NCBI RefSeq assembly: GCF_000497125.1
Contig: NC_090598.1
Span: forward strand, 1,550,001 to 1,614,000
Source of the DNA: Spironucleus salmonicida
Taxonomy: Eukaryota
Length of the DNA stretch: 64,000 nt
Reading direction: 5' to 3'
Numbering within the stretch: position 1 is the first letter of the stretch; every line of letters begins with the position of its first letter. Shown here piece after piece: positions 14,984 through 39,540 of the stretch. A model generated the notes under the pieces. That model searched no databases and was not told where the DNA came from. It saw only the letters and a list, made by a program, of their open reading frames with translations. A program made the translations under genes and the position numbers.

Positions 14984-15751
14984 CCTTATTTTTTAATTCT
15001 AAAGACCGTCACTTCATATCTCGCGTTCAGTCGGTTCAAAGCATTGCTGCAGTAGCTACCAGTGTCCCCTTCTCATATTTTCGTGTTCAACTGGTCTTTT
15101 GCGAGTCACGGCGACTTTACGCTGCCTCCCAATGTTGCGCGAGCACTGACCTCGGCTAACCTCTTGCAGGAGGTGGTGCGGACTCATCACCCTAACACAA
15201 GGCTCGTGTTGGGACCCATAGGCGATGTATGCGTTACCGATACTAGAGTATTTCCCCAGGTGCCCAACGATGAGCTGTAGGCTCTTTTCCCGTACGATAT
15301 CATACAGGATCCGACTGTCTTCAGCTATGGAAAGAGCCGTATTTTGATCCATGGTGTCCAGATCACGCAGCAGGTCAGATGCAGCGCTCAAAATGAGCGG
15401 CTGGAATCCACTGTCAAGCTGGGCGCGTATGAGCAGGTTGATCAGGTTTCTGAATTCCCGGCTAACCAGACTGTTCACCCGGAGGACCGCAATATCATCG
15501 CTGAGTCGCTGCTGCAAACCATAATCGTACAACAGAATTGCACGCCGGCCCCTTCATCTAGCTTCCTGAAGCTCACGGACTCTATGTGCAACTTTCACTT
15601 CGATACACTAATTTTGATCTAGGAGGACCTGCAGCAGTACAACTGCCAGATTCACGGCAAGCGGTGCGCCGTAGTCCCAGATTTTGGAAAGGGAGCGTAC
15701 TGCACTGTGGCAGGCTGCCACGGCGTGAGTAGCATCGCGTTCTACGAGTGA
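14984..15751 (+). pseudogene. POLE2: 5'-truncated POLE2 fragment (C-terminal domain only)
   Basis: Same frame as the POLE2 3' half at 37205-37972; no in-frame ATG between the upstream TGA (14756) and the repeat start. Confidence 0.8.
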
Positions 15752-17319
15752 CTGAACTTTTTTGGGGCATACATCAGCAGGGAACGCCGTTTGAAAATTC
15801 ACATCACTAGGGGTCTAAGAATAGGAAATATAACCTCACTGGCCGTGGCCAAACTTGCTTCCCAGCAGCTTGACTCCCTTCTTGGCGCTCTCCTTCCCGG
15901 CAAGCTTCGGCATCAATCTTGCCAGGATCAGCTCAATGAAGCCAAACTTGCTGCCGAACCCGCGCACCTTCAGGGCTATAACGAACTCGCAGTACCTTGA
16001 GTCTGTCTCTGTAATCGCAGAGTTCTGGATCTTCTCCATGAGCACGGCCGAATCCTCCCAGGCCGTTCTAATTTCCAGCAAGGTTGTGTTGTACTGATCG
16101 AGTACCCCAAAATCTCCCTACTCTAGGGCATTGGCGACACTGTCGTTGAACTTTGTGATCTTCTGGTCACGCGAATCGCAGATGAACTGCCGCACGGCCT
16201 CCTTCAACTGTTACTGTAGCGACTCCAGCGCCTTCGGAAGAGTGGGAAGCAGCATATCCGCAAGTTCAATATTGCCCTGGATGGTCTATATTGGAAGGCT
16301 GACCCAGCTCTCGGGGTCTTTGAACTCGAACTCTGTCACGGACGGCCGCATGTCAATCTAGCGCGACACAATAATCCGAGAGTTGTCAAACACCAGAATC
16401 AGTTTGGTCAAGAAAGGCGATATGAGACTGTACTGTATTGTCGAAACAGGGTCTATCAGTACCTAGGAGCCATCGTTGACGAGCAGCACATAATACTCAT
16501 TAACAAGCACCTGGGTGCAGAGACGCGCTACGAACGCCTGGTAGCCGCAACCACTGAGCAGTGCCTGGAGCAACATGGCGTGCTCGAAATAGTCTCCGCC
16601 GCACACGCTGAACACCTGGTCCAGGCTCATCCGAGTCTCCAGCTGGAAACTGCCTAGTTACTGTTCGGTGTAGTACCGGACTAGCGTATCCGGTATGAAT
16701 GGCACGCTAGCCGCAAAGGCTATACAGTCGTCGATTTTCTTAATACTAAACTATAGTATCAGCTTCTACGTCTGTATCTCCGAGGGAAGGAGCTAATTTA
16801 TGAACACCTGGTCACCTTTCAGGTTGTTCACGAACAAGGTAATACCCCGCTGCTCGTAGGACTACCTGATAGAATACTTTTTGAGGTACGCTCTTTTCTG
16901 CCGAGTGGTCATCTGCTGCATCAGCTCCTGTTCGTAGATACTCGATTCTGCGCTTAGCTACCCAGTTCGTGTCTAGATCTGCTCAATTCTCTGCATTTTT
17001 TGTCCAAACTCTGAGGGGAGCTACCCTGTATACTAGCTACTATCAAGGTTGCAGAAATAAACATCCCCCTTCTTGCTTTCCTACTACTGCGAAACAGGGG
17101 TGCGAGGTGGATCAAAGGTGAGAATTATTTGGATAGATGCTGTCTGCAGGTAGATTTCTCCTTCCACCGATTATTTTAAAAACAAGCTACGGAGAGGTAT
17201 CGTCACTTGCGATTCTGCGATATATGAGTTATCGTTGGGGTTGTGCTCATAGAGGATAAGCTTGACAGCATATGGGAACGATGCGATAGCTTCATCTGAT
17301 GCATCATATCCTAAAAACT
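14984..17319. repeat. 2,336-bp GC-rich direct repeat, copy 1 (POLE2 3' fragment plus the 3' end of intact CC2D2A)
   Basis: Matches 37205-39540 at a constant offset of 22,221; starts CCTTATTTTTTAATTC, ends CCTAAAAACT; 7 substitutions seen by eye. Confidence 0.97.
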
Positions 17320-19963
17320 CTTTCTCTTTAAATAATTTTGGCAGCGGTGCAGAAAATTCTAGTTTCTCGCTAAAAAATACTTCGTCATTTAAAGGTGACT
17401 AAAGTTCTGTTGATTATGCTTCGCATCCTGAACCTGTTAATTTTGCTGCTATTTAAAATAATGATGTAGTTATTGGAGTTTCATAAAGTTATAATCTGAT
17501 AACACTTAAAGATACTTAAACAAACTCTCCTTCAACAATATTTTCGTGAATCTCATTTTCCAATAGATTATCTTATTTTTAGAACTATTTTAAATATAAT
17601 GAATGTAATGTTCTACCTTTAGAACGTTATAGAATCTTAACAGGATATAATGATCGAGATTTCCATAAAAATGGTTATAATATGAATGGATTTATCCATT
17701 TTCCAGATGGCCATAAAATAACTAATTTTTCCTAAATGAAATCTGTCTAAAAATTTTAATAAATTTATTTCATTGCTGCTAAATATTACGAAAGAAACAA
17801 TGGTTCATTTAAAGGAGCTTTCCATACATCATCATATTACAATCTTGTTTTTCTATTGACTTATGTTATACTTTAATGTAGCTATATTTTTTATTTTTAC
17901 GATTTTTTACCTTCTATTATTGATAACTTGACTCCTGTTGCTAATTCTCCCAAATTAATAAAATTAGTTGGATCATATTTTTTGACTGCTGTTTTTTCTA
18001 AATTATAAAATTATGTAAGTTCCTATTTATATTTATTAAAGTCTCCTCCTTTATATTACGATTACCCTATTGGTGTCTGGATCTTACTATCAAGCTACTA
18101 AATATTTTCTAAGCTATAATTCATATTTGGGTCGAAGTTTTACTTTTTAAATGGTTAAACATTATCAGATTTTGAGTCCAAACTATTACATTATAAAAGA
18201 TAACCAATAGAATAATTTAGTGAATCTGAAGAATAATCTAATATATTTTTATCCTCTCCGGACTTTAAAGGAACAATAACTTCCCCAGTATGAGACCCTA
18301 TTTAAACTGAAATTCTAATTTTAGGTAGAACTTATGAAAATGGTTAGGTAATTTATATAGCTAATGGTTTAGCTAACTCTACTGATAGGTCTGCACCTAA
18401 TCTAATAGTTTACCCAGAACTAGAAACTTTCATAGTTTTTATTAATCCTATTGTATTTGATTAAAGCACTTATGAATTTTTTAATAGTGAAACCTTAATT
18501 TATTGTTTATCTACCAGGTTACCTAAGCTTTAATCAATTGTTGATACTTTAAATTCGAACGGTAAGTTAAGTTCAGAAGTAAGTAATTGTTTCTCATAAA
18601 GTAATTGCGACTAACGTTATATATTAAAGATATCTTGACAATTATAATCATCATTACAACCATCATTTTCTTATTATTTTAGTATAAAATTCTATTATAA
18701 CTTATCTATTGCTTGTATATATGCAAGGTTTTAAGCTAAATCTATTATTTGCAAAATTTCATCTTCGCTATTTGATTACTTTGTATCAATAGATTATATA
18801 TTTATACCGATAGCAGTACCATTATCCCTTTATACGTATTGATTCAATAATTTTCTAACAGATCTATATCTTTTAACATTTTAAAAATCAATCTATAGTT
18901 TTTATAATGTTTCTTAAATGATTTCTACAAATTTCCTATTATCTAATACATTAATATTATTGTAAATACTGCTAAATAAATCTTCCAATGTTAAAAATTT
19001 TGTATCAATCTTATCAAGTTCACTAGATTAATTAAATTTTTCAAATAGTTTGATGCTATAGTTAATTATCGCTGAAACTGAAACTTAAGCATCTCCTTTA
19101 GAAATATTAACAGGTGATATAATTTCTCCATCTATATTAATGGCAGATACTAGTCTGCAAACATATAATCCCGTTTATAATGATTCAGCAATTAGATTTT
19201 ATTTTTATATAAATAATCTTCCCAAAATAAGTGTTATATTTATGTTTTCTTAAGTTTGCTACTAATTCTACTATTTTTAAATAATAATATTATCTATTCT
19301 AGGTACCCAATTACCATACTCTCTCTTAAATATTTATCCTGCAAATAAATATTTTGGATAAACAGTAAATGGGGCACTATTTGGAATATAGTCAGTATTA
19401 AGTAATCGAGCAAATTACCTACAAGCATATCTTGGAATAATTTTCAGTTATCTAATACCTAGTATTGATTAAGTTAATTAATCTAAGAAAGTTTGTAAAT
19501 TTAAAGATTAAAGTTTAAATAATAATTTACTAAATGGTTATCTAATAATGACTTATAAAGTTGCACTTACTTCTTGTTATAGGGTTTAAACTGGAGTTTA
19601 TTATATTTAAATTAGTTACTAATATCCTGTTTAAAAAATTTAGTCAATTTAACCTAATAAAAAATTAGAAAATCTATTTTCAATAAGAATTAAAAATTCG
19701 TTGCTAATAAACGCACCACTTTTCTATCCTAACCAAAAAATTTCCGATAATTATCTATAATATATATCTGGAATTTGTGTATCAGATTCTAATGATTTGA
19801 TATTCTATTGTAAAAATAATAAATTTTCGTAAACGATACTTAAAAATAAAATAGCATCCTATTTTTATTATTATAATGATTCATTTTCAAAATTAAGTGC
19901 TTTTAACTATGTAACCATTTGATGATTGGCTTAAATGGCTTCAGAAATATATTTTGATGCCAT
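15836..19963 (-). CDS. CC2D2A: CC2D2A/MKS6-like ciliary transition-zone protein (C2 plus transglutaminase-like domain; 1375 aa)
   Basis: Frame checked free of TGA across the repeat boundary; YDPTN, a C2-like region, then SVPFIPD...GDYFEHAMLL...LIDPVS...KITKFN...FVIALKV matching the CC2D2A/CEP76 C-terminus. Confidence 0.75.
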
Positions 19964-20019
19964 TAATTAAATTGAGGATGAATATTTGGATATTTTATTA
20001 ATATATATTTTTTTGAATA

Positions 20020-23000
20020 ATGAACTAGTAACTTTTGGATTTACAATGTTTACTAAAACAGAATATATTTAATAATAAAACTCTTAACTTATCATATGAA
20101 ATTTGTTTATACTAGGATGAAAAATTTGTTTTATAGATTCTTAAAATCTTCGCTTAGCGTCCAGAATTTTCCTATCTACTATTAGCTTCGTTCTTAAATA
20201 AATCAATTAATGTAAATAGTTTATTTCATTACACTAAAAATGCATCTAAAGAACCGCTTGTTTTAATAGGTTGTTTTCTTTAGTAGTATACAGTATTTAT
20301 TTAAACTTTAATTCCAACCTAGACAATATTAGACACTGTGAAAAGTTAGTTAGCAACTAATTCCTATTAAGATTTTGTTTATAATGTAAATTAAATATAA
20401 ATTACTTAATTTCAAGAATAGATGATTAATGATTTAGCATAATAATTATTATTTAATCGAAAACAATTAGCATAATTTACCAGCTCTAGATAAATTGATT
20501 AATTTGTTAATTGTTTGCTTATGACAAATTAGCTCTAGTAATAATAGATAATATTAAATAAAAACTATGCATTAGCTTCAAAAAAGTTAAATTTTTCAGT
20601 ATCAAAATATAGCTTATTTTAAAAAATTAACCTTGATAATTAACTAAAGAAATAAATATCTCTAATTAATGATACATTAACAATACTATTTTAATTTGAT
20701 TAGTAATTATTGCTTTAAGGTCCATTCTATTTTATTAATTCGTATTCGTCTAAAGATTTTTAATATAACATAATATAGTTAATAGATATGGAAATTTTAT
20801 AGCCAGATTGTATGTTAAAACTTATTATTAACCTATATGGAGATTATTCTATGGATACTAATAAAAAGTAAGTTATTGAAGTATTGTCTCTATTTTACTA
20901 TTAGTACCTAGTAGCATATTCTAGTATTAAAATAATATTATAACATGATAATTATCAGTTGATTCTTAAAGATATTTCTAGTCATCTTATAGGATTTATG
21001 CTAAATGTTACTGAATATTCGTCTATTTTAATAGGTATATAGGTTAAATTGAGTTTTTATAATATTTAAGTCGCTATTTACTCTTAGTAATTTATATAAA
21101 TAATATTTAACTTGAGAAAATTATCAGAAATAAAAATAATAAATTAGTCTTAGTTAGATTAATAAATATTGGTATATCACTAGTTATATTTATTTACAAG
21201 TCTTTCAATGGTATAATAGGGACAATAACTTTTTGCAGCAAAACATATAAACAGTTTGTTATCTACAGATAAATAAATATTAAAAATATAAAATCTCATT
21301 TTTATGATAAAAGATAATAATTCAGAATTTATTTAATTATATTTCAACCTTCTATTAATTGAATTATTATTTTTTGATATTAATTATTTTTACGGCTAAA
21401 TTATATTTTAAACTTCTAAATAACTTCAAATTTACATAGTTAAATTATTTAATTAGCATACAGTCCATTAAACATGTATAGTATTACTTAAATAAGTATA
21501 AATTTATGCACAAAAGTAACCTTAATATTCTAATATATTTTTATTATAAAGATTTAAAATGATTGAATATCAACTAGGGAATCAAATAAATAAAGCTTTA
21601 GTCAATACTATCATCGGTGATCCAATTAAATAAATGATTTAATTATATCTATAATAGGAGAATTAATTCATTTACAAAAAAATTTACAAATAAAATTAAC
21701 CAGTAACAGCAAAATTATGTCGTGCAACATTATAAAAAACTCATGATTATATGATTCTATAAAATATTGATAGTTTGCTTGATACAGTAGATTCGTCCTC
21801 ATTTAAAATTGTATTATCAAATGAATACTTTTCAAAAAATACTTATTTGTTTATATCAATCTAAAATACGTTATTGTTTAAATTGTCTTTGTAAACATAA
21901 GCATAATCTATATAAATACCAGTGCAATATACAAATACGTAGCCTTAAAATTTATCATTGGAAATTGAAGCAATAAAGTAACTTTAGCTCGGTAATATTA
22001 TCGGATTTATTTTTAATAGATTTTAATCACTTTCATCTACTTTAGAAACTTCTTTAGCGTCATATAGCCAATCATAAATTCAAGATTTATAAAAATTAGA
22101 TAACTTTTATATGTAATTTTATAATGCATTACCATTTTTATTATTTGGGCCCTTAGTTGGACTAACACGTTATAGTTAAACGAAATAAAATACTGAGAAT
22201 AATATAGAATCTAATTTAGATCAAAATTTATATACTATTGCTAAACTCTCATTCTAATCTATAAACTAATTTAAACTATTCAACTTTAACATTTAGCAAG
22301 ATTAGATATTAAAAATTATATTTATTCTATTATCAAATGAACATGTATTCAATTTTAAAATTAAATAAAAAGTATATGATAATTTTACTAATTATTTAAT
22401 ACCAATTTTAATTAAGCCTACATTTCTCCCATTTTCACTGAATCGAATTCCTTTTGCTACCTTGGAATTAAGTTATATTTAACAGCAAAATCTAGATACC
22501 TTTATCCTATTTTACGATAAGCTCAATCTTATAACAGATATAACACATGTATAAAGAATATCGATTGACCCCATATTGAACTAAATACCACTAGAAAACA
22601 CATTTTCTTTTATAAATACCATAAGATATTTGAAAACGTCACAAAAAATGCATATAACAGCATCTGAGTAACTCCCACCCTCTACAAATTTATTTTTTGT
22701 AGATTCTTCGCTCCCCTAGACTTAGATTCGCATCAGAGAACTTCTGAACAACTAAAAATAGTCATGGGTCGAAATCACAAAACCGCAGGCCATTATAGAC
22801 TCAATTAAGTCTACATAACATTTTATTTTTGCAGGCCATGGAGGTGCCGAAAATCTGCTTCCACATCACAAAATTTTACAGCTAGAAAGCCTCCCAGAAG
22901 CTGCAATTCTGGGATGCTCATCACTGTGTGGAAATTATTTTTCCGGTGGAAGAATTCGCTATACACCGGAGAAAAATTGGCGGCATGGTAGCATTGTAAT

Positions 23001-23151
23001 TGGCTGTTTGTGGGACATGCTCAGCGGAGAATTAGACAGGTTTGCACAAGGTTACGTAGATGGTGGAATGGGTATTTAGGGAAGCTTTTAAGGACGAAAG
23101 AAAATGTTATTGAAATCAGTTTTCGGCGTCGGAATCGTTGTTTATGGGTGA
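20020..23151 (+). CDS. ESP1: Separase (peptidase C50; about 1043 aa)
   Basis: Catalytic FAGHGGAE and ILGCSS; VIGCLWD...ELDRF; C-terminal VVYG. Confidence 0.88.
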
Positions 23152-23164
23152 GAAAATATGTGAT

Positions 23165-26100
23165 TCAGTAAAATTTGCATGATTATTCAAACTAATTAGG
23201 GGTCAAAAACAGCGCTTTAAGCGTATATAAATCTTCGGATACGGCTCCTGAAAGTGATAAAATAGATTTATTATTACTGCGAATTTCGACTAAAAAATCG
23301 TATGACAATATGTTGAGAATTCGTATAATAATGGATGGCAAAAGTGGATGAAAATTATTAAAAAGTTTCTTAACTGATATCCCTGGGTTAATATAAATAA
23401 ACATTGAAATGTCCTTGCGTAGTTATTATATTAATTAGGCGTCTAGAGTAGTAGTTTATAACACGATTTCTCTAGAATACAGCAAAAGTTCATTTGTGTT
23501 AGAATGCTAGTTAAAATACCCTAATTTAGCTATAAATTTTTATTCAGGATTTAAATCTGAATATTTAATATAATCTTTTTTCTTTTATATTGTTAAAAAT
23601 TATTTAAATATTTGTTACTCGGTTTGATTTTTGCAAAGCTAAATAAAATATGATACTAATTAGTTTGATTTTTAAGTAGGATATATATGAGTTACTTATG
23701 TTTAATTTTCAAATGACTCAGAATCTAATATAGACTTCTACTCTATTCTGATTATTTAAGGTTTATTACATGAACTAATGGGGTTTTCAAAAAATTCATC
23801 ATATTCAGAAATTATACTGATGTCAGTCTAAATTGAGTGTAAAGATGTAGAAATACCTTTATATGATGATGTTTTATTGTATTTAATATTATCAGAAATT
23901 TGAAAGGGATAATTATCAAACATACATATATCATCTTCAAAATTATCTCTCTAATTATCAGTATAATAAATAAAGGTTGCTAATTATGAACTATTATTAA
24001 CTTACTTTTAAATATGGGAATTTTGAGAATATAAAGTAGCAATCTATTTATTATTATTCAAGTTATATTTTTAGCAAAACAAAAATAATTAATTGTCAAC
24101 TATTTCATCTTGTAATATATAATATTGTAGCACCTTGTTAAAAAACTAATAATACGCCATGGATTGTTTATCTGAGTATCTTAAATTTACATAATTACTA
24201 GCTTAAATTATTTTAGAGGATTGATCAAGGTTAATCTATTACTCCAAAGTATTCAGATTCTCGTTTATTATTAATTAGTCTTTAAAAAAAGGTGATTACT
24301 ATTAATACGTTTATTAAATATTAGTTACAATATCATTCCTAATTGATAAAATTGATTACTGAAACTTATAACTTCTTTTCTAATAGGCAAATTTAGGATA
24401 CACTAAATTTAAAGGTACAATAGTATAAGGTATATACCTTTATTTTTTGTAAATAAATATTTTAGATTTTATATTAAAGGTTATAATTGAGTAAATAGAA
24501 TATGCTAGAAATTATTAAATTGTAAAATTAATTTATTATTATGTTATAAACTCCTAAAACGTATTTTCTATAGCAATGCATTTATTAGGAGAGCTTAAAA
24601 TTAATTTTTTAATAAGTATTAATATACTAAGTTAAGGTATTGCGTAATTTTTAATGAACTCATGTAATTTTGAATTTGTTTAAATAAATGTTCTATCAAT
24701 TATTATTTCTTTTAAAATATTATAATCAACCTCTGGCTTTTATAATAAAAATTTAGTAATATTTATATCTTTAATATCATGAAAAGATCTCAATCTAAAA
24801 ATAAAATCCTAAACTAATAAAAATGGTATAATCAAGTCCTATTACTCATAGTTATAATTTATAGAACAAAAATAGCTTATATTATCATATTATAAATAAG
24901 ATAAATCTTTAAGATATTACGATATACCATTATCTGCAAAAATATAAGCTGATAGTATTTCAACATTCAAATAATATGGAGTGTTTATGACATACACTTA
25001 TTTATTTTTCTATAAATATGACAGTTTCTTATAATAATGTGGCTTAAAAGCTAGCTACAATGATACTTCTGTTATATATCCTGCATTCTCTAATACTTTC
25101 AATTAAGCAGAAATACTTTATTTTACTTTTCCCAATTTGTTTCCAATAAATTATTTAAATATGTCTTCAGATAAATATATTAGCTAACAGTCAAATTTTT
25201 AATCATTTTAAAGGTCATAAAAAACAGATTCAAATTATACCCCAAAATCTTTAACGAGTTTCAGTAACTATCTAACTGTAAACTACATTATCATTTAATC
25301 AACTGATATAAATCCTACATTTAATGTTTGATAGATTTAATTATTAGTTATTTAAATTAACACTTTTAATAGATATAGTGTTCTGTTAACATTATTTTCA
25401 ATAAAATAATAGGTTTTGATATACGTATCCTATTAATTTGGCACACAAGAATTATTATTGCGTTATAAATTTAATACATCCTATTAAATAGAATCTCTAC
25501 ACCAAATTAAATCATTTTCTATTATAATATATTTAAATATAACCAAAAAGTTTAAACTTTTATTTATAAGATACTCTAATAGTTGAATATTCTTTATTAT
25601 TGAACCTAATTATATAATTTATGTAGTTATGTTTGATATATTCATTTACATAGTTTTACTTATCACAAAAACTAAATAATTCATTTAAAATTAATTAAAG
25701 CTACAACCAGGGTCATTTATAATGGATTGCTACTATATATTCGATATATCATCCAACTAAGTATCAGTTTCATTTTAAATACTGGGTTGCTATGGTACCC
25801 ATTCTTACTTTTTTTAGCAATAAAACCATGGTAACTAAAATCCAATATATTATTTTATATTTTTACTAGACAAAAATAAACTTTAAATAAGGTTAGAATC
25901 TTCTTTAATCTTTAAACTATAAACTGGTGTCAGTGGTTAAATTCTACTTTAAACTAAATGATCAGCGTTGATATATCTTAAAAAACGTGAAGATTTAAAT
26001 TTGCATTCTTATAAAATATTTAATTTACATAAATGTTCTAAAACTTTATTAATCATCTATTTATCATAACTCAAAGCCCCATATATTTGACAATTCTATA

Positions 26101-26638: not shown

Positions 26639-26669
26639 TTTAATAATACAAAGAATTAGTATATAATAT

Positions 26670-27137: not shown

Positions 27138-27178
27138 TTATGTATTACATAATTTTTATGTAATATATTAATATAAGA

Positions 27179-28837
27179 TCACTATATTTCACTTTTTCGT
27201 GATTACAAATATTATTCAAACTATGCGTATTTTTGACTAATATCATCACATAAAAATTAAAATTATTCTTTGAGATCTGGGCTTAAATATTCTTTAAGTT
27301 TAATGCAATAAGTAATATAAATATTGAATTAACCACTTTCTTATAATTGTGCATTCGTAATTTATATCTCTAATATTTTTTACATGAGTGTATTCACTAT
27401 AGATATGAGATCAGATAATGAAATTAGGAGATATTCTATTAAATTTGGTATAGCCTATAAGAGTTCTGAAAACAACTAATTGCTAAGTTTATTAATCAAC
27501 ATTTCTTAAATTTATGCTTTAAATAAGTAGTTAAAACTATTTTATGATTTTTCGAAATCTTTACACTTAGTTTGCTTTGTTATTTAAATAAGAGGTAAAT
27601 TATTAACAGTAAGTAACTATAAAAATTAAATTCCCTTCAAATTTAACCTATAAAAATTATCCTGAAAATATTATGATAAAGAAAAAATTATTTATATCTA
27701 AGTATAACCATTAGAAATAAACTTATTAACAAGAACATATAATAGCATTTACAGTTCTAATACATTAATTGACTATAGTATATAATCAATAAGATTAGAC
27801 TAAAGTGCTTAAAATCTTATTTAATCAAATTTTACTGTATTTTTCTTAATTTATAATAATATAACTTCATTATCATCATAATACACTAAAAGCTAATCTA
27901 GATCATAAAAATGATCAACAATTATATCATCTTGTAAACCTTTTAATTTAATCTTTGGAAAATTTTAACACTTAATAATAACATCAGTGACAAGTCTTTT
28001 TAATAAAACTGTTTATTATTTTTTTATTTTTTATTTTTTAACATCGATCATATCAAAGTATTGTAGCGAAAATTCTTCTTGATACTTCGTCATAGTACGC
28101 TTCAGACCATAATATTTCGATACTTGACTAGAGCTCTATTATAATTATATTGTCTTTCCAAATCTTTAAATTTCTGAGTTAATTTTAGAAGATTAATTTT
28201 TGAAATTTCTGTAAAATACCACTAATTCCTCTTATGAACTCTCAATATCTTATACATTTTATTTATTTACTGGGTATTTGTAGTTAAAGCCAAATAAATA
28301 TTTCAAAAATATTTAATTACACGCTATAACTGTATCACAAACTTCCTAAACATCTGATTTAATACAAAAACGATCTACTTCTGATGATAGTTATTATACA
28401 TATGTCTCTAAAAAACTATTCATTGCTTCAAATACAAATTCGAAGCACTCATTGTTAATAATAAGACCTTATGCATATAATGTGAAAATTTTCTGTATCA
28501 ATCTTTAAATCTTTACCATATTATCCCATTCTTCTAATTATAGCTCTTTAATAAATTCTAAATCAAAATCAATACAATGTTCTGAACATTTTTAAAATGT
28601 ATATAGAAAATTCTTGGAAAACCAATTATCAATAAACATCTTGGATACTTAAAATGCAACATCATATAGATCCTCTTTATTTGGGAATTATGCATTCTTC
28701 TTACCATCTAAAATATATTTAATTTAATTAACAGTATTTGGACCAGCTCTATCATAATTTGGAAAATTCTAATAGATTTTAAGCAAAGCATTTCGCTGTG
28801 CATACGCCATATCTGGATCAATTTATGCTATATTCAT
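27179..28837 (-). CDS. Hypothetical protein (552 aa)
   Basis: Code-6 ORF; TAG-TGA stop. Confidence 0.7.
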
Positions 28838-28889
28838 TAAGAAAAGAAAATAAAAGTTACATATATTATTAAATATAAAATGAACTGAC

Positions 28890-30809
28890 TCATTTGTACT
28901 GATCATATACCTTAATATATTCTTTAATCATTATGCTCCAATCAACCACTATAGAATTTCTGCTCATTCTGTTTCTCAACGCAATTCTCTAATGAACGCT
29001 CATTTTTAAATAATCCAACATCATTTCGTGTAATTATAAGACAGTATCCCAGTATGGTTTATAGATTCTATCGACAACTTAAACACCATATTTATTTGAC
29101 ATCCAGGAATTGTTTTCATTCTCCTGCGTTGGATACTAAGCCCCTTATTCTTCAATATAGTTACCAAAACCACACATGTTGGAAACGACACTAGCAGTAC
29201 CGACGCACATACACTCAGGAGACGTATAACCGAATGGTTCATAAAGAGATGCGAAAACGCCCAAATGAGCACCTCTAGTGAAATCAGAGTAATCAAGGCC
29301 AAAAATAGAAGTTTTAGACAAAAACTCAGGAACCCATACCATTTTGCAGCGGTCGCTAAAGTTGTTTGTTAAATGCAGTTCTCTCAAACGGCACAGCAAA
29401 TCGGAGTTCTAATCTGCTAACTTATGAGTCGTAACTGGAGACTGATTTGCAGATTTCTACATTGACTGATGGAAGCGCTTTAATAGCATTAAATCATCAG
29501 AACCGCAGAGCTGGTTAAGAGACAGCTCTGAGAAATCGCTATCTAAACATTCGCAAAGTTTGTTTCCTAGAGATTCTGTGATATTTTCAGATATCTTTCC
29601 AACTGATGACTATATTTCCTTCATCAAGTTAGTAACAAACAGGCTATGTTCTGTAAAACCATTGTTAGGGGCAGGTGCTATGATAATACCAACAACAAAT
29701 TTGTTCGCTAATTCTGGGTGAGAATCGCGATACTACTAAGATGTAAGCTTCTTATTTACCTCATATAATGCATCAATGAAAAGATCATATCCTTTATTTT
29801 TGTATTCATATCTACCAGCACTAAAGAATACGAAAGTGTTATCAATATCAATACCGTAAAAGTGGGATTTTACGAATTCCAAAATTTTGTCTCTTTCGAT
29901 TTTATGTTTAAAATTGAGTTCGTGGTCGTCAATAAGCCCCTTCTATGAATCAACGTGCAAACCGTTCCAGGTAACTGCGTCAACCTTTCTTCCCAAAAAT
30001 GCTTCGCACTCAACACTTGTAATTGTGCTCACTGTTGTAAACTAGTCTGCTAAATTAGCGCATGCGCGTTCAATTCTATGTTCAAATTCAACGCTTCTCT
30101 TACATGCCTCTGCATCCCAAACTCCAGCGTCGGTCTATTTGAAGCACTAGTTGAGGTCGGCATCACCAGCACTCAAATGCCTTCCCAGCGTAGTTGCATG
30201 AGTTGTGAATATGAACTTAACCCTATCGAAATCCTCAGGACTCTTCTGCCTGAAATACTTCTATGCTGGGCCCAGTTTTTTGTACGCAAATAGACCTACG
30301 CCAGCCAACCATTCATGTGTCTGTACAATTATAGTTTCGTGGTTTTTTGCATATTCTACTAAGAAAAACGAGTAAAATGCCCATTACATCGCGCCAAAAG
30401 TTATCGCATTAAGTTTGAAATCCTCAGGATGTTGATGTGGTTATTCTGACAAATTGGATTCCTCCCACAGAAGTGTTTTCACAACATTAACAAGTTTCCC
30501 ACCAATGAGTGGGAGTAAAAAACATTAAGGACCGCCTGGAATAAGCCATTAGCCATATCTAACAGAGTTGAGTGGTAGCTCGAAAGAGCGTTCAAAATTG
30601 CTTAAAAAGTCGTCCCAGAACGAATTTGGTGTTCTTTTATCCTCAAAATTTGTGGCATACTTATCATCGCCAATAACATTCATACCGATCATAAAGAAAT
30701 GGTCGCCATATTTTTTAACAAGCTCAGGTGCTTTGGAACGAACAACTGTTTCCACACCTCCAACTTTATGAATAACCTCATAAGAAGCTTCTAAAATAAA
30801 CTGAGACAT
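28890..30809 (-). CDS. GSY: Glycogen synthase, eukaryotic GT3 family (639 aa)
   Basis: EASYEVIHKVGG, THEWLAG, FTTHATTLGR, AGRYEYKNKG, GVFASLYEPFGYTSPEC. Confidence 0.95.
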
Positions 30810-30913
30810 GATTTGTGGAGGGGTCAACAAATTTATTCATATATTATATATTAATTAGTTATAATTAGTTCTATTAGTTACTACTTCAAAAAGTCTGAAA
30901 TAAATACAAATTA

Positions 30914-31906
30914 TCACTTAATTTTATTAGAATTTAAGATTTATAATAGTAAATCAGACATAACTGATAATTTTTAGTTTATTTCTTAGAGGAGTAAGAT
31001 ATTATCTGACCCAGTAGCCTTATTTTCTGATTCTGAAAAAGTAAAACTAGACGACATTTCTACTCCTACTAAGCTAGATAATGTTTCATTAGTTAAATTA
31101 CCTGTTTTTGAAAAATCAATTTTATTCTTTGAAGTCGGTAATACCAATTCATTCTTGTTGTTATTAGAATAATTAAACGACTAACTGAACAGTTTCTTTT
31201 TAATATTAGATGTAAAGGACTGGAATTGCTATCTTAAAGAAATATGAAATAAATGAATATCAAAATTAGTATTGGTTTATTTCGCCACACACCAACCAAA
31301 ATTATGTGGTTGTATAACTAAATTTTAATATGAAAACTGACATTTAGTAATTAAATTTGTTATAGTACTTGATGATAAATGCAGCATAGAATCTAATAAG
31401 ATTGTATCTCTCACATTTGTAACTAAATGTTTACTAAAATTAAATGATTGATAAATTAACTAAAATATGTGTAGGCTTGATATTAAAAAAACTTTATCTA
31501 ACAATGAATATATACTATTTTAACAATTTTATTCTAACTCTAAATCTTACTAATATGCAAAGTTAATACCGGTAAATACATACAAATAACCATTATGTTA
31601 CTCAATTCCATATAATGATCCCTAAAAACCAAAACATAATAATTAGAGCACATTTTTGCAATAAATTGTACTTTAATTACCTTCCAATTTATAAATATTA
31701 CTTTCATATTAACAAAACCAAGAAGTAGCACAATAAAAACACTTGAATTTACTACTTAGCTATGTCTTCTAAATTTTAATATCACTAATTTTAATATCGA
31801 CAATATTATAATCTTTGTCAAACTCAATACCCTTACCATCATTAAAACAGTACTACTTCCCATTTTATGAATAATAAAATGTCATATCATCTAAATCAAC
31901 TTTCAT
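30914..31906 (-). CDS. Hypothetical protein (330 aa)
   Basis: Code-6 ORF; AAG-TGA stop. Confidence 0.7.
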
Positions 31907-31937
31907 TTTTATATACAAATAATTTGAGATGCAAATA

Positions 31938-33347
31938 TCACTATCTATAAAACTAGATAGTATTTTATTGCTTAATTTAATTTGTAGCAGCTCTAGTCAT
32001 TTCAATAGCTTGCATTCGTTATTGCAGATCTGGACTGGCTGCTAATTTTCTAGCTTGTGTAATAATTTCATAAGGTTTTTAATTTTTTATATTCAATTGC
32101 TTCTGATTTATAAGATATTCAATAAATATATCAGGGTCATCCTTAGGTATAAATTTTTCACCTTAGCTGGGCTTTGGTATTCTAAATGTTTATTTAACAG
32201 GTGATGTTGGTCTTGATAAAGTTTAAATAAGTTAAAATTCACGTTTTCTTTCATACTATTCTCTATTTAATGTAGCTTAAAATTATCTTACTTCTATGTT
32301 AGCAGCATTTTCTTTCCGTTTTAATAATAATTGGTTTCTTTGCTGCGCAGCACTTTAAATCTTTTCAGCTTATTTAGAAATAGTCTCTGATTGGCGTTAT
32401 AATAGTTAATTCTATATATCAATATTTGCTTTTTCTTAAGTTCTACTTAATTTTTATTATTATTCATGGATTCTTGACTATTTTTCAAAATTAATTTTTT
32501 TTCTTTAAACTTCAGAATGCTATAGCTTTTCTTATTAAATTTATTAATAATAATCGCTTCTATCTTATATTGACTGACAGTACGTAGTGTGTCGTAACTA
32601 TTATTACAATGCACGATCATAATTCTCTTTTTATTTTAATCGTTCTTGACTTCTTTTATTTTATCTTAGAACTGCGGTTCTTTATTCTTTTTCAATATAT
32701 TATTTTTCAAACTCTTTGAGTTTTTCTTGTTATTATAATTAATAATTATTATAAGTTTATTAAAGTTTTATTGTATCGTTTTCTTATTTAACTAATAAGT
32801 GTCTCTATTTCTCTGTTAAGTTTTTTTCTATTATTTTTTGAGCCTATTATTAACCATTAAATGTTTGCTATAATTACTTTAAAGCTTTCTAGTTTTAATC
32901 TTGTATATGCTAGTCTTTCTTCTGCTAATATTACTAAAACATCTCTCTACTCAGTGTTAGACGCTATTTGCAATTAACAGTCTAGGTCACTACATTGGAA
33001 TCCAATTTAAATTGATTATATTAATAGTTTTCTTACTAAATATCCTTTTTGACACCATTTACTTTAACCGGACTTTAAGTTTACTTAATCTACTTCTATC
33101 TAGTATTATTAAAAATTACATATTTTTTTAAATTTTACGGTTTATTTAGCGCTTTCCATTCTAATTATGGTATACCATTTTCTATTATCGTTAATCGTTC
33201 TTTTTCAATTAACTATTTAATATTCTCTAATTCTATTTCTAACTTTTATTATAGTTCATATGTTGGTGCAAATTATTCAAAAAATTCTTAAACTACTCCT
33301 AAACGTTTCATAGCTAATTAATATCTTGGTGAATTTTAGCGTTTCAT
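31938..33347 (-). CDS. Q/E/K/R-rich coiled-coil protein (469 aa), possibly cytoskeletal or flagellar
   Basis: Code-6 ORF with long charged heptads; TAG-TGA stop. Confidence 0.75.
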
Positions 33348-33396
33348 TTGATAATTAATATTATTATTCTTATATAATATACTTAAGGCGTATCAA

Positions 33397-34317
33397 ATGA
33401 TTGCAACATATCAAGGTTTAATAAACTTGTAAGGAAATTACTTTCGAATACCACTAAATATTCTGTAGCATAGGAAAACTCAAGATTTATTAATTTTATA
33501 ATTGGATGATAATTATTTATATCTCTTAAATTTTGTCACTTTTAAAATAAATAAAACACGTTTTTCTAGTCTTTAAGCATCTTAATTAATCCCATAAAAA
33601 TTATTAGATAAATATTTTTAGACACTAGACCCTGAGATAGCATTCTAAATTTAAAAATATAAATAAAATCTTTTTGTATAAATGAATGAACTTATTTTAG
33701 AAAATAATTATTTCTTCCTCACTTAATTGAATGCTTCATTTAGTTATAATGATTTTGAATTTACTGATTATGTATTTAAATTAGATTATTAGCATGATTT
33801 AGTTTATAATTACGCTAATGATACATTTGTTTTAATTGCTGATAAGTTATTTAAATTATAACAATATAATATTGTTCTCTACCAAGATCATACTATAGAT
33901 ATTCAAATTATAAATAATAATTTTATTGTGTTTAAATAAAACGACTCAGCTTTTTTAGATTAAACTATAATCCACACGTATTAAGATTTTAAACTTTAAT
34001 TGGATAAAAATATATTATTATTTAATGATGGTATAAACTATTCGTTAACATAAGATGAGTTATTATACTTCAAATGTAACTTAATTTCTTCAAGAAATTT
34101 AAACTTATTTTTTATTTCAGCTGATACTTTTTTAAATCTATAAGGTGATGTTTTTGTTTTAGAATTAGGTTTTGCTGGAATTTTTACAACGTCATCTTTT
34201 AACGTTACCCTATCAAATAATATATTTGTTATAAACAAATAATTTTTTCATAATGTTTCAAATTTTGATTACAATAAAAATTATTTTGACTTATTATATA
34301 AGAAGATAAAATAGTGA
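33397..34317 (+). CDS. Hypothetical protein (306 aa)
   Basis: Code-6 ORF; TAG-TGA stop at 34315-34317. Confidence 0.7.
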
Positions 34318-34326
34318 TTTATAAAA

Positions 34327-36408
34327 TCATTTTATATACCGTAGTTTATTTTTCAAGATATGAATGTTCATTTAATTGCTAAACTACGAGTTAATATTAT
34401 GCAACGACTCAAGATTATTACTTATTGCTAACTAGCAGCCTAAAAATTAAACAAGATCGTCCTATAAATTAATATCCAATTAACTAATTTCTTTACCTAA
34501 AACATTTATATTAGAAAAATTAATAATATTCTTTGATAATAATTTACTGTCTTTCTAAATAGGTTCTATAAAATTAATTCTTTTATTACACTTAATATTA
34601 AGTTTCATATTATCGATACATATATTGTTTCTGTTTAATCCAAAATTGACCTATATCTAAAAACTAATAATTGTTTAAATTTAAACTTTTTTTGAAGATT
34701 ATTCTAACAAAATTTACAAATTCTATAACAAATTGTCTTAATTGCAATGTTATGAAAACTATTGAGTTTAAGTTGTCGAATTTTTTTTCACATTCAAGAA
34801 TAGTATAATTTTAGTAATATTTAGATTAGCAGAGTATTATATGATCTGTTATTAACAGTGATTAAACATTAGTTAATACTGATTCATATTAATTAAAGAA
34901 AATATAATTTTATTCGAAAAGACTGTTATTTATCGTATATTATCATCTGACTTTACAGGATCGAATTTAAATATTAGATCAAACCCACGTAAAGCTTAAA
35001 ATAATTTTTTTCCTTAACTTTCACCTATAATAGATTATATTCTTTATATCTATAATTATTAAATATCTTACAATTTAAATAAATTTTCATTTTTTAACTT
35101 CTATATTTCAATATTGGATAACAAAGGTATAAAATCTAAATTTTGACTAGATATTTTTGTATAAAATATATTTTATGCAATAAAATTTAAATGGGTAGAT
35201 GAAGATAACTTATTCGATAAGTATGATATCAATGGATTTGAACCTGCACCAATAGTGATAGAAATCGATAATTGTTTTTACAAATCTTATTAAATTTTTT
35301 ACATGTATGCATAAATAGACTATTCTGAAACAAATCCTGAAATATTAATAAAACATTCAAAGCAAGAATAAGGCATTACTTCAGCAGATATTTATCTAAT
35401 ATATTCATAAAAACAATTAGATATTAAACTATATCTTTGATTATTATAGGATATAATCTAAAGATTAATCTAAACTTATAATTTTTTCAAGGACTAAATA
35501 TGTTATCCAATCTAAATTTAATATTTTGCAGCAATCTAGTTAAAATATAATATCTTTTCATTCTCTATAACAACTATTGGAAAGCCAGAATATTTTTCAA
35601 GATTATCAAATATTAGGGATGAAATATAAAAATTATCAATTGATATAAAAATATAGAACTAAGAAACACCTTTGCTAGGCTATTATCCATAAGGTCTATT
35701 GTAAATAAGGTACTAAACCGCATTTAATTTTTATTTGTATTCTAAATTGTCCTATTCAATGAGCTAAAATTAGGGTAATAACTACTAATTACTTATACTA
35801 ACAATATTAGGTGACAAAGACAGTTATTTAACAGGTGAATATAAAGCAGATTATTAAGAAAGCTATAAATATTATATTTAAGTTTACACTAAGTCAGGTT
35901 AAGATTAAATAGATTTTATATCTACAACTTCTGGTATGGATATGAGCGTGTCTAAGGTTTAGTCTATGTCTATTTAAAAAGGCTTACATAATATTTCATA
36001 ATTATAATTATAATCATATTAAAATTGAATAGTATTATGTTAATATCTAAACTTCTATAAGTCTAAAATTTCGTGACTGTTTATTGATTCCAATATCCAT
36101 CCCGGTAATAATATAGGATACTTTGTTCCATATTTTTAAAATGTGCTAGACGATAAATTTTACGCAATTATATGAGTTATTTTTGGACTAAATTAGAATA
36201 CAATCAATCCACTATGCAAACCAATTATTTAACGGAGATATGTAGTCGGTGGATCTAGCCTGCCATTCAGCCAAAATAGAAATCCAGTAAATAAATTAGA
36301 AATTTTATGTTATTATAATTATTAATCTTGTTTATTTTATTTCTTTTTTCTGTAGTCTTTATAATTAGATCCTAGAGGATCTAATTACTCAGATCTAATT
36401 CTATACAT
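34327..36408 (-). CDS. REV1: REV1-like Y-family polymerase with BRCT domain and degenerate active site (693 aa)
   Basis: BRCT LFTGFLFWLNGRLDP...ITHIIAQNL...PGWILES; Y-family core FISIDNFYIS, PYSCFEC, ITIGAGSNPLIS, LRGFD; CTD-like tail. Confidence 0.85.
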
Positions 36409-36454
36409 TAAATTTTTATTACTTTAATTATATATAAGTATCATTATTATATAA

Positions 36455-37972
36455 ATGAGTCTTAAAGCTTAAATTTTGTAGTAGCTTAATTTTATGTAAA
36501 TTAGGATCACCCCTGATGGTAAATAACTACTGGAGAAGATACTTATTGATATTGTCGATCCAATCTAGTATATAAAATAAATTTTTTCTATAGCATCAGC
36601 AGATATATTAGATGCTAAATAAATTTAATTACTAATTCTTTAAAATTAGCCATCTTCTGCGTTTAATATTTAATCTTATTCCGTGTTTCAAACAATGTTC
36701 TTAATATAAACCATTTAACATTATAATGGTACTTTTACCTATCGCTAAAAATAAAAATTTGATAATAATCTTAAATTTTATTATTAAATGTATAGCAATG
36801 TTACTAGCTTTGAGGATAAATTTTTAAGTCTACTTGCATCCTAATATGGCATTACGAATTAGAGTTGTACAAAATCCCATTAGTATAAATAAATTATTCA
36901 AGCCTTATTTCATCTTCAATCATTATCATATAGTGTTAATAATCCAGACTAATTAATTGGAACCATTTGTATATTATAGGGATAGTATTTAACTGATAGC
37001 TAGACATCTATTTTATTTAACTTATAGCAAAATATTTTTACGTCTCTTTCATACATATATACTGATTCAATAGTTTTAGTTTTAGGAACTTATTAAAATA
37101 ATATCTTTAATATTATTGGTATCGCACCACCAGTGTATGATACAAAATTTATTCATAAAGTTTAATATGTAAATCCAAAGATAGCTATACCAAGCCAAGC
37201 AAAACCTTATTTTTTAATTCTAAAGACCGTCACTTCATATCTCGCGTTCAGTCGGTTCAAAGCATTGCTGCAGTAGCTACCAGTGTCCCCTTCTCATATT
37301 TTCGTGTTCAACTGGTCTTTTGCGAGTCACGGCGATTTTACGCTGCCTCCCAATGTTGCGCGAGCACTGACCTCGGCTAACCTCTTGCAGGAGGTGGTGC
37401 GGATTCATCACCCTAACACAAGGCTCGTGTTGGGACCCATAGGCGATGTATGCGTTACCGATACTAGAGTATTTCCCCAGGTGCCCAACGATGAGCTGTA
37501 GGCTCTTTTCCCGTGCGATATCATACAGGATCCGACTGTCTTCAGCTATGGAAAGAGCCGTATTTTGATCCATGGTGTCCAGATCACGCAGCAGGTCAGA
37601 TGCAGCGCTCAAAATGAGCGGCTGGAATCCACTGTCAAGCTGGGCGCGTATGAGCAGGTTGATCAGGTTTCTGAATTCCCGGCTAACCAGACTGTTCACC
37701 CGGAGGACCGCAATATCATCGCTGAGTCGCTGCTGCAAACCATAATCGTACAACAGAATTGCACGCCGGCCCCTTCATCTAGCTTCCTGAAGCTCACGGA
37801 CTCTATGTGCAACTTTCACTTCGATACACTAATTTTGATCTAGGAGGACCTGCAGCAGTACAACTGCCAGATTCACGGCAAGCGGTGCGCCGTAGTCCCA
37901 GATTTTGGAAAGGGAGCGTACTGCACTGTGGCAGGCTGCCACGGCGTGAGTAGCATCGCGTTCTACGAGTGA
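36455..37972 (+). CDS. POLE2: DNA polymerase epsilon subunit B (Dpb2; 505 aa), full-length copy
   Basis: N-terminal helical domain, OB-fold (LIGTICILQGQYLTD...VLVLGTY...IGIAPP), phosphoesterase-like domain (IFVFNWSF, LVLGPIGD, FPQVP, QDPTVF, LLQTIIVQQNCTP); 3' half lies inside repeat copy 2. Confidence 0.85.
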
Positions 37973-39540
37973 CTGAACTTTTTTGGGGCATACATCAGCC
38001 GGGAACGCCGTTTGAAAATTCACATCACTAGGGGTCTAAGAATAGGAAATATAACCTCACTGGCCGTGGCCAAACTTGCTTCCCAGCAGCTTGACTCCCT
38101 TCTTGGCGCTCTCCTTCCCGGCAAGCTTCGGCATCAATCTTGCCAGGATCAGCTCAATGAAGCCAAACTTGCTGCCGAACCCGCGCACCTTCAGGGCTAT
38201 AACGAACTCGCAGTACCTTGAGTCTGTCTCTGTAATCGCAGAGTTCTGGATCTTCTCCATGAGCACGGCCGAATCCTCCCAGGCCGTTCTAATTTCCAGC
38301 AAGGTTGTGTTGTACTGATCGAGTACCCCAAAATCTCCCTACTCTAGGGCATTGGCGACACTGTCGTTGAACTTTGTGATCTTCTGGTCACGCGAATCGC
38401 AGATGAACTGCCGCACGGCCTCCTTCAACTGTTACTGTAGCGACTCCAGCGCCTTCGGAAGAGTGGGAAGCAGCATATCCGCAAGTTCAATATTGCCCTG
38501 GATGGTCTATATTGGAAGGCTGACCCAGCTCTCGGGGTCTTTGAACTCGAACTCTGTCACGGACGGCCGCATGTCAATCTAGCGCGACACAATAATCCGA
38601 GAGTTGTCAAACACCAGAATCAGTTTGGTCAAGAAAGGCGATATGAGACTGTACTGTATTGTCGAAACAGGGTCTATCAGTACCTAGGAGCCATCGTTGA
38701 CGAGCAGCACATAATACTCATTAACAAGCACCTGGGTGCAGAGACGCGCTACGAACGCCTGGTAGCCGCAACCACTGAGCAGTGCCTGGAGCAACATGGC
38801 GTGCTCGAAATAGTCTCCGCCGCACACGCTGAACACCTGGTCCAGGCTCATCCGAGTCTCCAGCTGGAAACTGCCTAGTTACTGTTCGGTGTAGTACCGG
38901 ACTAGCGTATCCGGTATGAATGGCACGCTAGCCGCAAAGGCTATACAGTCGTCGATTTTCTTAATACTAAACTATAGTATCAGCTTCTACGTCTGTATCT
39001 CCGAGGGAAGGAGCTAATTTATGAACACCTGGTCACCTTTCACGTTGTTCACGAACAAGGTAATACCCCGCTGCTCGTAGGACTACCTGATAGAATACTT
39101 TTTGAGGTACGCTCTTTTCTGCCGAGTGGTCATCTGCTGCATCCGCTCCTGTTCGTTGATACTCGATTCTGCGCTTAGCTACCCAGTTCGTGTCTAGATC
39201 TGCTCAATTCTCTGCATTTTTTGTCCAAACTCTGAGGGGAGCTACCCTGTATACTAGCTACTATCAAGGTTGCAGAAATAAACATCCCCCTTCTTGCTTT
39301 CCTACTACTGCGAAACAGGGGTGCGAGGTGGATCAAAGGTGAGAATTATTTGGATAGATGCTGTCTGCAGGTAGATTTCTCCTTCCACCGATTATTTTAA
39401 AAACAAGCTACGGAGAGGTATCGTCACTTGCGATTCTGCGATATATGAGTTATCGTTGGGGTTGTGCTCATAGAGGATAAGCTTGACAGCATATGGGAAC
39501 GATGCGATAGCTTCATCTGATGCATCATATCCTAAAAACT
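37205..39540. repeat. 2,336-bp GC-rich direct repeat, copy 2 (3' end of intact POLE2 plus CC2D2A 3' fragment)
   Basis: Matches 14984-17319; flanks diverge immediately on both sides. Confidence 0.97.
38057..39540 (-). pseudogene. CC2D2A: 5'-truncated CC2D2A-like fragment
   Basis: Frame open within the repeat, but beyond 39540 it reaches a TGA (about 39683) with no in-frame ATG and no similarity to 17320 onward. Confidence 0.75.

What the first reader, a model, noticed from the sequence alone, without database searches (positions are those of the whole stretch)
14984..39540. Reciprocally split gene pair: a 22,221-bp circularly permuted unit bounded by direct repeats made of POLE2 and CC2D2A 3' ends
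Seen: the 2,336-bp repeat holds the convergent 3' ends of POLE2 (+) and CC2D2A (-). At copy 1 the CC2D2A frame continues to ATG 19963 while POLE2 has no 5' half. At copy 2 POLE2 continues to ATG 36455 while CC2D2A has no 5' part. I saw no transposase, TIR or TSD. Inference: this is the layout expected if a circle carrying an intact POLE2-><-CC2D2A junction integrated, or after tandem duplication and loss of the outer parts. Recombination between the copies would loop out a 22,221-bp circle with both genes whole, plus separase, the TFIIIC-like gene, glycogen synthase and REV1, leaving only stumps behind. Unequal crossover would amplify the unit. Each copy completes a different gene, so neither should be dispensable: a self-locking duplication.
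Basis: partly seen in the sequence, partly recalled or inferred. Interest (0 to 1): 0.9.

Follow-up and report, generated by a model that had tools for sequence, protein, structure and literature searches.

The report
Reciprocally split GC-rich direct duplication
A fish-parasite protist carries a real 2.3-kb stretch twice, 22 kb apart, each copy finishing a different gene; it looks like an old rearrangement scar kept identical by copy correction, with no evidence yet that the block between the copies loops out as a circle.

Summary
The layout is real. A 2,343-bp direct repeat (14981-17323, 37202-39544; 9 mismatches) has two copies in G000. Copy 1 completes a 1,375-aa CC2D2A/CEP76-family gene, copy 2 a 505-aa DNA polymerase B subunit, probably POLE2. 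DNA-run contigs show a double-depth repeat and a single-depth spacer: not a mis-assembly, not amplified. That points to an old duplication homogenised by GC-biased gene conversion. Such GC-rich pairs are common here (25 in 1,024 kb), and this scan found them before, mostly inverted. Reciprocal gene splitting also occurs in 3 of 18 inverted pairs; the direct, inward-facing form appeared once in 7. Two overlapping inversions give this layout as readily as circle insertion or tandem duplication with loss; no outgroup order was obtained. The lock is partial: both stumps could be deleted. Excision to a circle is untested. Side result: a candidate for the PolE2 listed as missing in Spironucleus.

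The parts
14981..17323 (.). Direct repeat, copy 1 (2,343 bp, GC 0.50): POLE2-like 3' stump + 84-bp convergent gap + working 3' end of the CC2D2A-like gene
37202..39544 (.). Direct repeat, copy 2: working 3' end of the POLE2-like gene + CC2D2A-like 3' stump
36455..37972 (+). Intact 505-aa DNA polymerase B subunit, probably POLE2/Dpb2; codons 250-505 lie in copy 2
14981..15751 (+). POLE2-like stump (codons 250-505), no 5' half; 2 non-synonymous and 1 synonymous interior differences from the intact copy
15836..19963 (-). Intact 1,375-aa CC2D2A/CEP76-family gene; codons 881-1375 lie in copy 1
   Evidence: (PF24656, E 1.7e-10)
38057..39544 (-). CC2D2A-like stump (last 495 codons; an internal ATG at 39217 would give 386 aa); 3 non-synonymous interior differences
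17324..37201 (.). Single-copy AT-rich spacer, 19,878 bp, holding both 5' halves and nine or ten tightly packed genes
20020..23151 (+). Separase (peptidase C50), in the spacer
28890..30809 (-). Glycogen synthase, in the spacer
34327..36444 (-). REV1-like (BRCT + IMS), head-to-head with the POLE2-like gene; start codon between 36408 and 36444
14759..14980 (.). 222-bp gap between the left WD40 gene (13898-14758 +) and copy 1; no significant similarity to the POLE2 5' half
39545..39897 (.). 353-bp gap between copy 2 and the M3 peptidase gene (39898-41760 -); no significant similarity to upstream CC2D2A

Best explanation
This is an old, stable, two-copy chromosomal duplication left by a local rearrangement that broke a convergent gene pair on both sides of their shared 3' region. 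Shown: two copies, each completing one gene, a single-copy spacer, and a GC step at the repeat edges. Inferred: the copies have corrected each other by non-crossover gene conversion with a G/C bias for a long time, which kept them 99.6% identical and rewrote codon use in exactly the duplicated parts. Inferred: crossovers (pop-out) occur at some rate, but the products are purged because the spacer carries single-copy genes such as separase and the polymerase subunit. For the origin I favour two overlapping inversions (about 0.4): a reciprocally split inverted pair, as found elsewhere in this genome, had one arm flipped by a second short inversion. Tandem duplication with loss (about 0.3) and circle re-insertion (about 0.25) come next.
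For: Repeat GC 0.498 vs 0.259 for the rest of the window. GC3 49/249 vs 158/256 (p 2e-22) and 132/880 vs 318/495 (p 2e-77); change-points at codons 254-262 and 890-899, just inside edges at 250 and 881. Four-fold GC shifts by 0.35 and 0.52, about 90-170 times the present copy divergence. Repeat is one contig at depth 19.5 and 22.4 against 9.2-11.4 for the listed left-flank and spacer contigs of 600 bp or more, with two contigs meeting each end in run X3. No remnant homology beside the stumps. In 1,024 kb, 23 of 25 two-copy pairs of at least 95% identity have GC of 0.42 or more, and all 25 lie within 24 kb. Three of 18 inverted pairs are reciprocally split. Direct pairs are fewer (7 vs 18) and rarely closer than 10 kb (1 of 7 vs 12 of 18, Fisher p 0.03). 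Duplicated regions of S. salmonicida average 44.7% GC vs 30.7% (PMC9509377).
Against: Conversion and its bias were not observed directly; the nine differences could not be polarised. No outgroup gene order was obtained (searches found no outside homologues), so the origin route is untested. X3 and X4 are one sample, the one flagged as a possible source, and the tool warns that contig depth is not a copy number. The spacer-length contrast is weak (Mann-Whitney p 0.07) and biased, because tandem arrays were filtered out. Census gene calls come from my own codon model. Why the dispensable stumps persist is only partly explained.
Confidence: 0.7

Rival explanations
1. Active excision cassette: recombination between the copies regularly releases a 22,221-bp circle with both genes whole, plus separase, REV1 and glycogen synthase. 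The circle is kept because it carries needed genes, and it re-integrates or amplifies.
For: The geometry allows it. The copies evidently recombine. Contigs and depth cannot separate the linear form from excised chromosome plus one circle. Leishmania makes such circles constitutively at direct repeats (PMC4028189 abstract). Episomal vectors are stable in Spironucleus vortens (PMC2386477, title and listing only).
Against: Spacer depth equals flank depth, so no amplification or net loss. G000 holds the linear form and no other contig with the repeat. The same GC-rich converted pairs occur at ordinary parent/daughter duplicates with no such geometry. No recombinase site, TIR or TSD was seen.
Confidence: 0.08
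2. Recent duplication of a stretch that was already GC-rich for another reason, with little conversion since.
For: 99.6% identity; single-copy GC islands exist in the region (8 of 18 islands not covered by a repeat within the 464 kb examined); 5 of 6 interior coding differences are non-synonymous, as for new neutral changes in the stumps.
Against: Both GC steps coincide with the repeat edges within about 5-19 codons, inside two unrelated reading frames. Flanks share no homology. The coincidence recurs across 23 of 25 pairs.
Confidence: 0.1
3. Assembly artefact: a single locus, or two haplotypes joined in tandem or in the wrong phase.
For: The phase across the repeat (which left flank goes with which right flank) could not be read from contigs; the DNA runs are from the possible source sample.
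Against: Double depth over exactly the repeat, two contigs meeting each end, single-depth spacer, and copy-specific alleles seen in the runs. A composition shift confined to the repeat is not produced by mis-assembly.
Confidence: 0.05
4. Gene-capturing mobile element, with the repeats as long terminal repeats.
For: A block bounded by direct repeats.
Against: Two copies only; spacer single-copy; repeats consist of host gene ends; no TSD or TIR; no transposase or reverse transcriptase among 28 ORFs.
Confidence: 0.02

Closest known systems
GC-rich duplicated regions of Spironucleus salmonicida (PMC9509377, parts 1-2 of 3 read; PMC1805757, passages read)
   Same: Duplicates of at least 95% identity are GC-rich (44.7% vs 30.7%); sharp GC shifts along contigs; table-6 code.
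   Different: In the text I read, neither paper describes steps inside genes at repeat edges, reciprocal gene splitting or direct-repeat geometry; the 2007 paper ascribes the shifts to regional mutational bias.
Primate X-chromosome palindromes with GC-biased arm-to-arm conversion (PMC8981503, abstract and outline read)
   Same: Over 99% identity kept by intrachromosomal conversion; arms richer in GC than flanks.
   Different: Here the repeat is direct, 2.3 kb, cuts through two genes, and GC roughly doubles; a crossover would delete rather than flip the spacer.
Staggered-break inversions with breakpoint duplications in Drosophila (PMC1885836, passages read)
   Same: Non-repetitive, often genic sequence duplicated at rearrangement breakpoints, up to about 1.9 kb, with no transposon; predicts the reciprocally split inverted pairs seen elsewhere in G000.
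   Different: Gives inverted copies that then decay (about 88% identity); this pair is direct and homogenised, so a second event and lasting conversion are needed.
Circle re-insertion with permuted order (tilapia vasa, cattle KIT; bioRxiv 10.1101/2022.06.22.497135, passages read) and tandem duplication-random loss (search listing only)
   Same: Same permuted order of the block.
   Different: Both are recognised by comparison with an outgroup order, which I lack. The passages read describe no multi-kb terminal duplication at the re-opening point.
Repeat-mediated circular amplicons of Leishmania (PMC4028189, abstract read)
   Same: Low-copy direct repeats flanking several genes in a parasite; recombination would give a circle and a deletion.
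   Different: No circle or copy gain shown here; the repeats are gene halves, so excision would rebuild two genes on the circle and strip them from the chromosome.

Membership tests
Segmental duplication under GC-biased interlocus gene conversion | Two genuine copies at very high identity | tested here: met
   99.6%, two copies, double-depth contig
Segmental duplication under GC-biased interlocus gene conversion | GC excess confined to the duplicated bases, strongest at synonymous sites | tested here: met
   GC3 0.20 to 0.62 and 0.15 to 0.64; change-points just inside the edges; 84-bp gap 0.42 vs mean 0.23 for 20 convergent gaps
Segmental duplication under GC-biased interlocus gene conversion | Copies more alike within than between lineages; AT-to-GC fixation bias against an outgroup | not testable with these tools
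   No related genome held; Hexamita homologue only 25% identical
Staggered-break inversion duplication | Duplicates in inverted orientation at the two breakpoints | tested here: not met
   Copies are direct; fits only with a second inversion
Staggered-break inversion duplication | Outgroup order shows the breakpoints | tested here: inconclusive
   No outside homologues of the CC2D2A-like protein or separase were found
Circle re-insertion / tandem duplication-random loss | Permuted order relative to the ancestral state | tested here: inconclusive
   Both intact genes run from the spacer into the repeat, and the Hexamita homologue aligns across the POLE2 edge, which implies POLE2-5'/repeat/CC2D2A-5' was once contiguous; flank order in an outgroup unknown
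Circle re-insertion / tandem duplication-random loss | Decayed remnants of lost duplicate genes beside the retained copies | tested here: inconclusive
   222- and 353-bp gaps are long for this genome but show no significant similarity (38 of 300 and 156 of 300 shuffles reach the score)
Leishmania-type repeat-mediated circular amplicon | Homologous direct repeats flanking a gene block | tested here: met
Leishmania-type repeat-mediated circular amplicon | Novel junction or circle detected in DNA | not testable with these tools
   Only contigs available; they break at the 2.3-kb repeat
Leishmania-type repeat-mediated circular amplicon | Copy gain of the enclosed block | tested here: not met
   Spacer contig depth 10.5-11.4 vs left flank 9.2-11.4 in two runs of one sample
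LTR or composite mobile element | Dispersed copies, TSD/TIR, transposase or integrase | tested here: not met
DNA polymerase B subunit (POLE2/POLA2/POLD2) | PF04042 phosphoesterase-like domain | tested here: inconclusive
   No hit for the window protein; 3 Hexamita homologues hit at best E 1e-5, 25.5 bits, under the 29.1 cut-off
DNA polymerase B subunit (POLE2/POLA2/POLD2) | Helical N-terminal domain, OB fold, then phosphoesterase-like domain | tested here: met
   Model (mean pLDDT 39): residues 1-65 match the POLE2 N-terminal domain 2v6z (Z 8.3, rmsd 2.2, 65 aligned); 150-230 match OB folds; Foldseek hits with E under 0.001 are nearly all B-subunit-containing complexes
POLE2 rather than POLA2 | Closer to epsilon than to alpha B subunits | tested here: inconclusive
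   Top 8 Foldseek hits are Pol-epsilon or replisome entries (E 5e-8 to 4e-6), first Pol-alpha entry E 4e-5; N-terminal domain Z 8.3 vs 7.2; low-confidence model
CC2D2A (MKS6) | C-terminal CEP76-type peptidase-like domain | tested here: met
   PF24656, 41.5 bits vs cut-off 27.8
CC2D2A (MKS6) | C2 domains and orthology separating it from CEP76 | tested here: inconclusive
   No C2 hit, no homologues found; the length argument for CC2D2A is recalled

The most novel reading that the evidence does not exclude
The two repeats work as a reversible recombination cassette. In part of the population the 22,221-bp block exists as a circle on which both split genes are rebuilt, and because it then carries separase and a replicative polymerase subunit it selects for its own maintenance: a natural essential-gene episome in equilibrium with its integrated form.
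Probability: 0.08. Interest if true: 0.85.

Novelty: new variant of a known kind. Interest (0 to 1): 0.45.

Why it matters
It shows that in this genome copy correction acts strongly between direct as well as inverted repeats, rewriting halves of working genes. A direct pair is the informative case: crossover would delete or circularise single-copy genes, so the locus allows the ratio of crossover to non-crossover repair to be measured in a diplomonad with one junction assay. The census suggests a route by which short inversions with breakpoint duplications shuffle gene order, which may bear on the reported lack of synteny with Giardia (PMC3916229, passages read). The 505-aa gene is a candidate for PolE2 (or PolA2), both listed as not found in S. 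salmonicida (PMC8516963, Supplementary Data 2 rows read).

Tried and rejected
Outgroup gene order through Hexamita accession numbers: obtained for the POLE2-like gene only; searches with the CC2D2A-like protein and separase found no outside homologue, so the test failed. Word-based, PDB-sequence and Pfam searches with the 505-aa protein found nothing outside the genome. The single-sequence model was unusable (pLDDT 34). One hit of the full search (P0003, repetitive, 3,445 aa) was dropped as spurious. No language-model look-alike search was obtained for this protein. Remnants beside the stumps: not significant. The POLE2 stump frame is open for 75 codons back to the WD40 stop; I judge this within chance, and listed RNA-type contigs of the WD40 gene end at 14767-14773. 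RNA-type contigs give little cover over the AT-rich 5' part of the CC2D2A-like gene; other genes show the same 3'-end pattern, so I draw nothing from it. No listed run is on record as RNA. Earlier-findings search for reciprocal truncation with circle excision returned nothing. Paper searches listed no description of this layout in a diplomonad; only listings were seen for most, and subscription journals are not covered. Dropped from the census: 2 of 27 pairs under 95% identity, and all overlapping or multi-copy hits.
Full report
Verdict. The best-supported reading is an old chromosomal duplication kept identical by GC-biased gene conversion, in an unusual direct, inward-facing arrangement. Nothing shows that a circle forms.

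Organism. The window reads under table 6. The one named homologue set is from Hexamita inflata. A 43-nt GT-AG intron in Rps24 ends in the motif published for Spironucleus salmonicida (PMC3916229 passages). I take the organism to be S. salmonicida or a very close relative. The window is G000:C3:1550001-1614000.

The repeat. 14981-17323 and 37202-39544 match over 2,343 bp with 9 mismatches and no gaps. G000 gave two matches, and 17324-37000 is single-copy. The 505-aa frame starts at 36455 and enters copy 2 at codon 250; the 1,375-aa frame starts at 19963 and enters copy 1 at codon 881. Each protein has one full match and one 3' stump in G000. There is no TSD or TIR and no transposase among 28 ORFs scanned.

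Is it an assembly error? In DNA runs X3 and X4 the repeat is one contig at depth 19.5 and 22.4, while listed left-flank and spacer contigs of 600 bp or more are at 9.2-11.4. In X3 two contigs meet each end. One at each end continues into the left flank or the spacer; the others continue on sequence outside the stretch laid, which I infer to be the copy-2 flanks. The X4 contig shows copy-2 letters at 7 of 7 interior sites; the X3 contig shows them at 2 of 7 and copy-1 letters at the other 5. Limits: both runs are one sample, the one flagged as a possible source; contig depth is not a strict copy number; contigs cannot phase across 2.3 kb. The linear form and an excised chromosome plus one circle give the same graph and depth. 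Amplification or net loss is not seen.

Each copy serves one gene. X5 and X6 are only guessed to be RNA, but X5 lacks the Rps24 intron. Their contigs carry copy-2 letters at the three POLE2 sites and copy-1 letters at the three CC2D2A sites. Contigs drop minor variants, so stump transcription is not excluded.

Gene names. The 505-aa protein has no direct Pfam or PDB-sequence hit. A Hexamita protein matches residues 87-387 at 25% (E 4e-8), across the repeat edge, and hits PF04042 below cut-off. A low-confidence model from six sequences (pLDDT 39) matches the POLE2 N-terminal domain (Z 8.3) and OB folds. Its top 8 Foldseek hits are Pol-epsilon or replisome entries; only one is titled as the B subunit, and I infer the rest from complex and chain length. 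So it is a B subunit, probably POLE2. PolE2 and PolA2 are both blank for S. salmonicida in PMC8516963 Supplementary Data 2 (matching rows only). The large protein has PF24656; CC2D2A rather than CEP76 rests on recalled length. Separase, glycogen synthase and REV1 are supported; 'TFIIIC-like' is not.

The missed clue. GC is 0.498 in the repeat and 0.259 in the rest of the window. GC3 goes from 49/249 to 158/256 in one gene and 132/880 to 318/495 in the other, with change-points at codons 254-262 and 890-899. Glutamine codons switch from mostly TAA to mostly CAG. Four-fold GC differs by 0.35 and 0.52, about 90-170 times the present difference between copies. If the 3' ends once resembled the 5' ends, or the reverse, both copies changed together over a long time. 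That is concerted evolution; a G/C repair bias is the known mechanism (PMC8981503, abstract). This step is inference: no outgroup polarises it. No GC excess lies just outside the edges, and the gaps beside the stumps keep no significant homology.

How common? I read 1,024 of 14,546 kb in three blocks of my choosing, one containing the window. After removing overlapping and multi-copy hits, 27 two-copy pairs of 300 bp or more remained, 25 at 95% identity or more. Of the 25, 23 have GC of 0.42 or more, all lie within 24 kb, 7 are direct and 18 inverted. By my own gene calls, 3 of 18 inverted pairs are reciprocally split (C1:711393, C3:1316519, C5:404759) and 2 more may be (C1:750034, C1:696824). 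Among the 7 direct pairs only this one has both 5' halves inside. Direct pairs under 10 kb apart are rarer (1 of 7 vs 12 of 18, p 0.03), though the rank test is weak (p 0.07) and tandem arrays were excluded. PMC9509377 reports duplicated regions at 44.7% GC vs 30.7%, and earlier notes of this scan describe the inverted cases.

Origin. Both intact genes imply an ancestral POLE2-5'/repeat/CC2D2A-5' junction. Three routes give today's order. (a) A staggered-break inversion (PMC1885836), or a crossover in an inverted parent/daughter pair, gives a reciprocally split inverted pair; a second inversion that flips one arm gives this layout. (b) Tandem duplication with loss of the outer parts. (c) Excision and re-insertion of a circle opened with a 2.3-kb overlap. 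I weight them about 0.4, 0.3 and 0.25, only because the precursor for (a) is present in the genome. The outgroup test failed.

How it persists. Neither whole copy can go, and pop-out removes single-copy genes, so crossover products should be purged unless the circle is maintained (inference). The lock is partial: the two stumps could be deleted without loss of coding sequence. Conversion can repair internal damage to them but not erosion from the outer edge, so their long survival is not fully explained.

Score. The process is known, reported in outline for this species, and found before by this scan. The direct, reciprocally split form was not in the listings I searched and gives a simple test of crossover and circle formation. 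Interest 0.45; the episome reading has probability about 0.08.

Noticed in passing
window 36455-37972 (+): Candidate for the Pol epsilon (or Pol alpha) B subunit that a published survey lists as not found in S. salmonicida; head-to-head with REV1.
   Followed up: partly
window 8236-8278 (-): 43-nt GT-AG intron in the Rps24 gene, skipped in a contig of run X5; matches a published intron of the species.
   Followed up: yes
G000 C3:1150001-1814000, C1:600001-800000, C5:400001-560000: All 25 two-copy pairs of at least 95% identity lie within 24 kb of each other and none joins two blocks, suggesting a distance limit on copy correction.
   Followed up: partly
L074-L075 (C1:711393-726475), L059-L061 (C3:1316519-1335913), L083-L085 (C5:404759-429236): Inverted pairs with reciprocal gene splitting; in all three the 3' ends lie inside the repeat, so the spare copies lack their 5' ends.
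   Followed up: partly
L083-L085 (C5:400160-429236): Two direct pairs and one inverted pair interlock; a 636-aa frame appears to join the middle of a 2,097-aa gene to another 3' end, a possible chimeric gene.
   Followed up: no
L025 and L027 (C3:1638158-1639142 vs 1654403-1655388): 986-bp GC-rich direct repeat that is an internal fragment of a Gcd10-family gene; a second glycogen synthase paralogue lies next to it.
   Followed up: partly
L014-L018 (C3:1468600-1504696): 36-kb GC-rich tandem array with a unit of about 1,585 bp, interrupted by other inserts.
   Followed up: no
window 14759-15751 (+): The POLE2 stump is in frame with the upstream WD40 gene, with 75 open codons after its stop; judged to be chance.
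   Followed up: partly
L014 (C3:1460438-1461231) and L028 (C3:1668669-1668986): Almost pure A/T simple-repeat tracts of about 800 and 320 bp.
   Followed up: no
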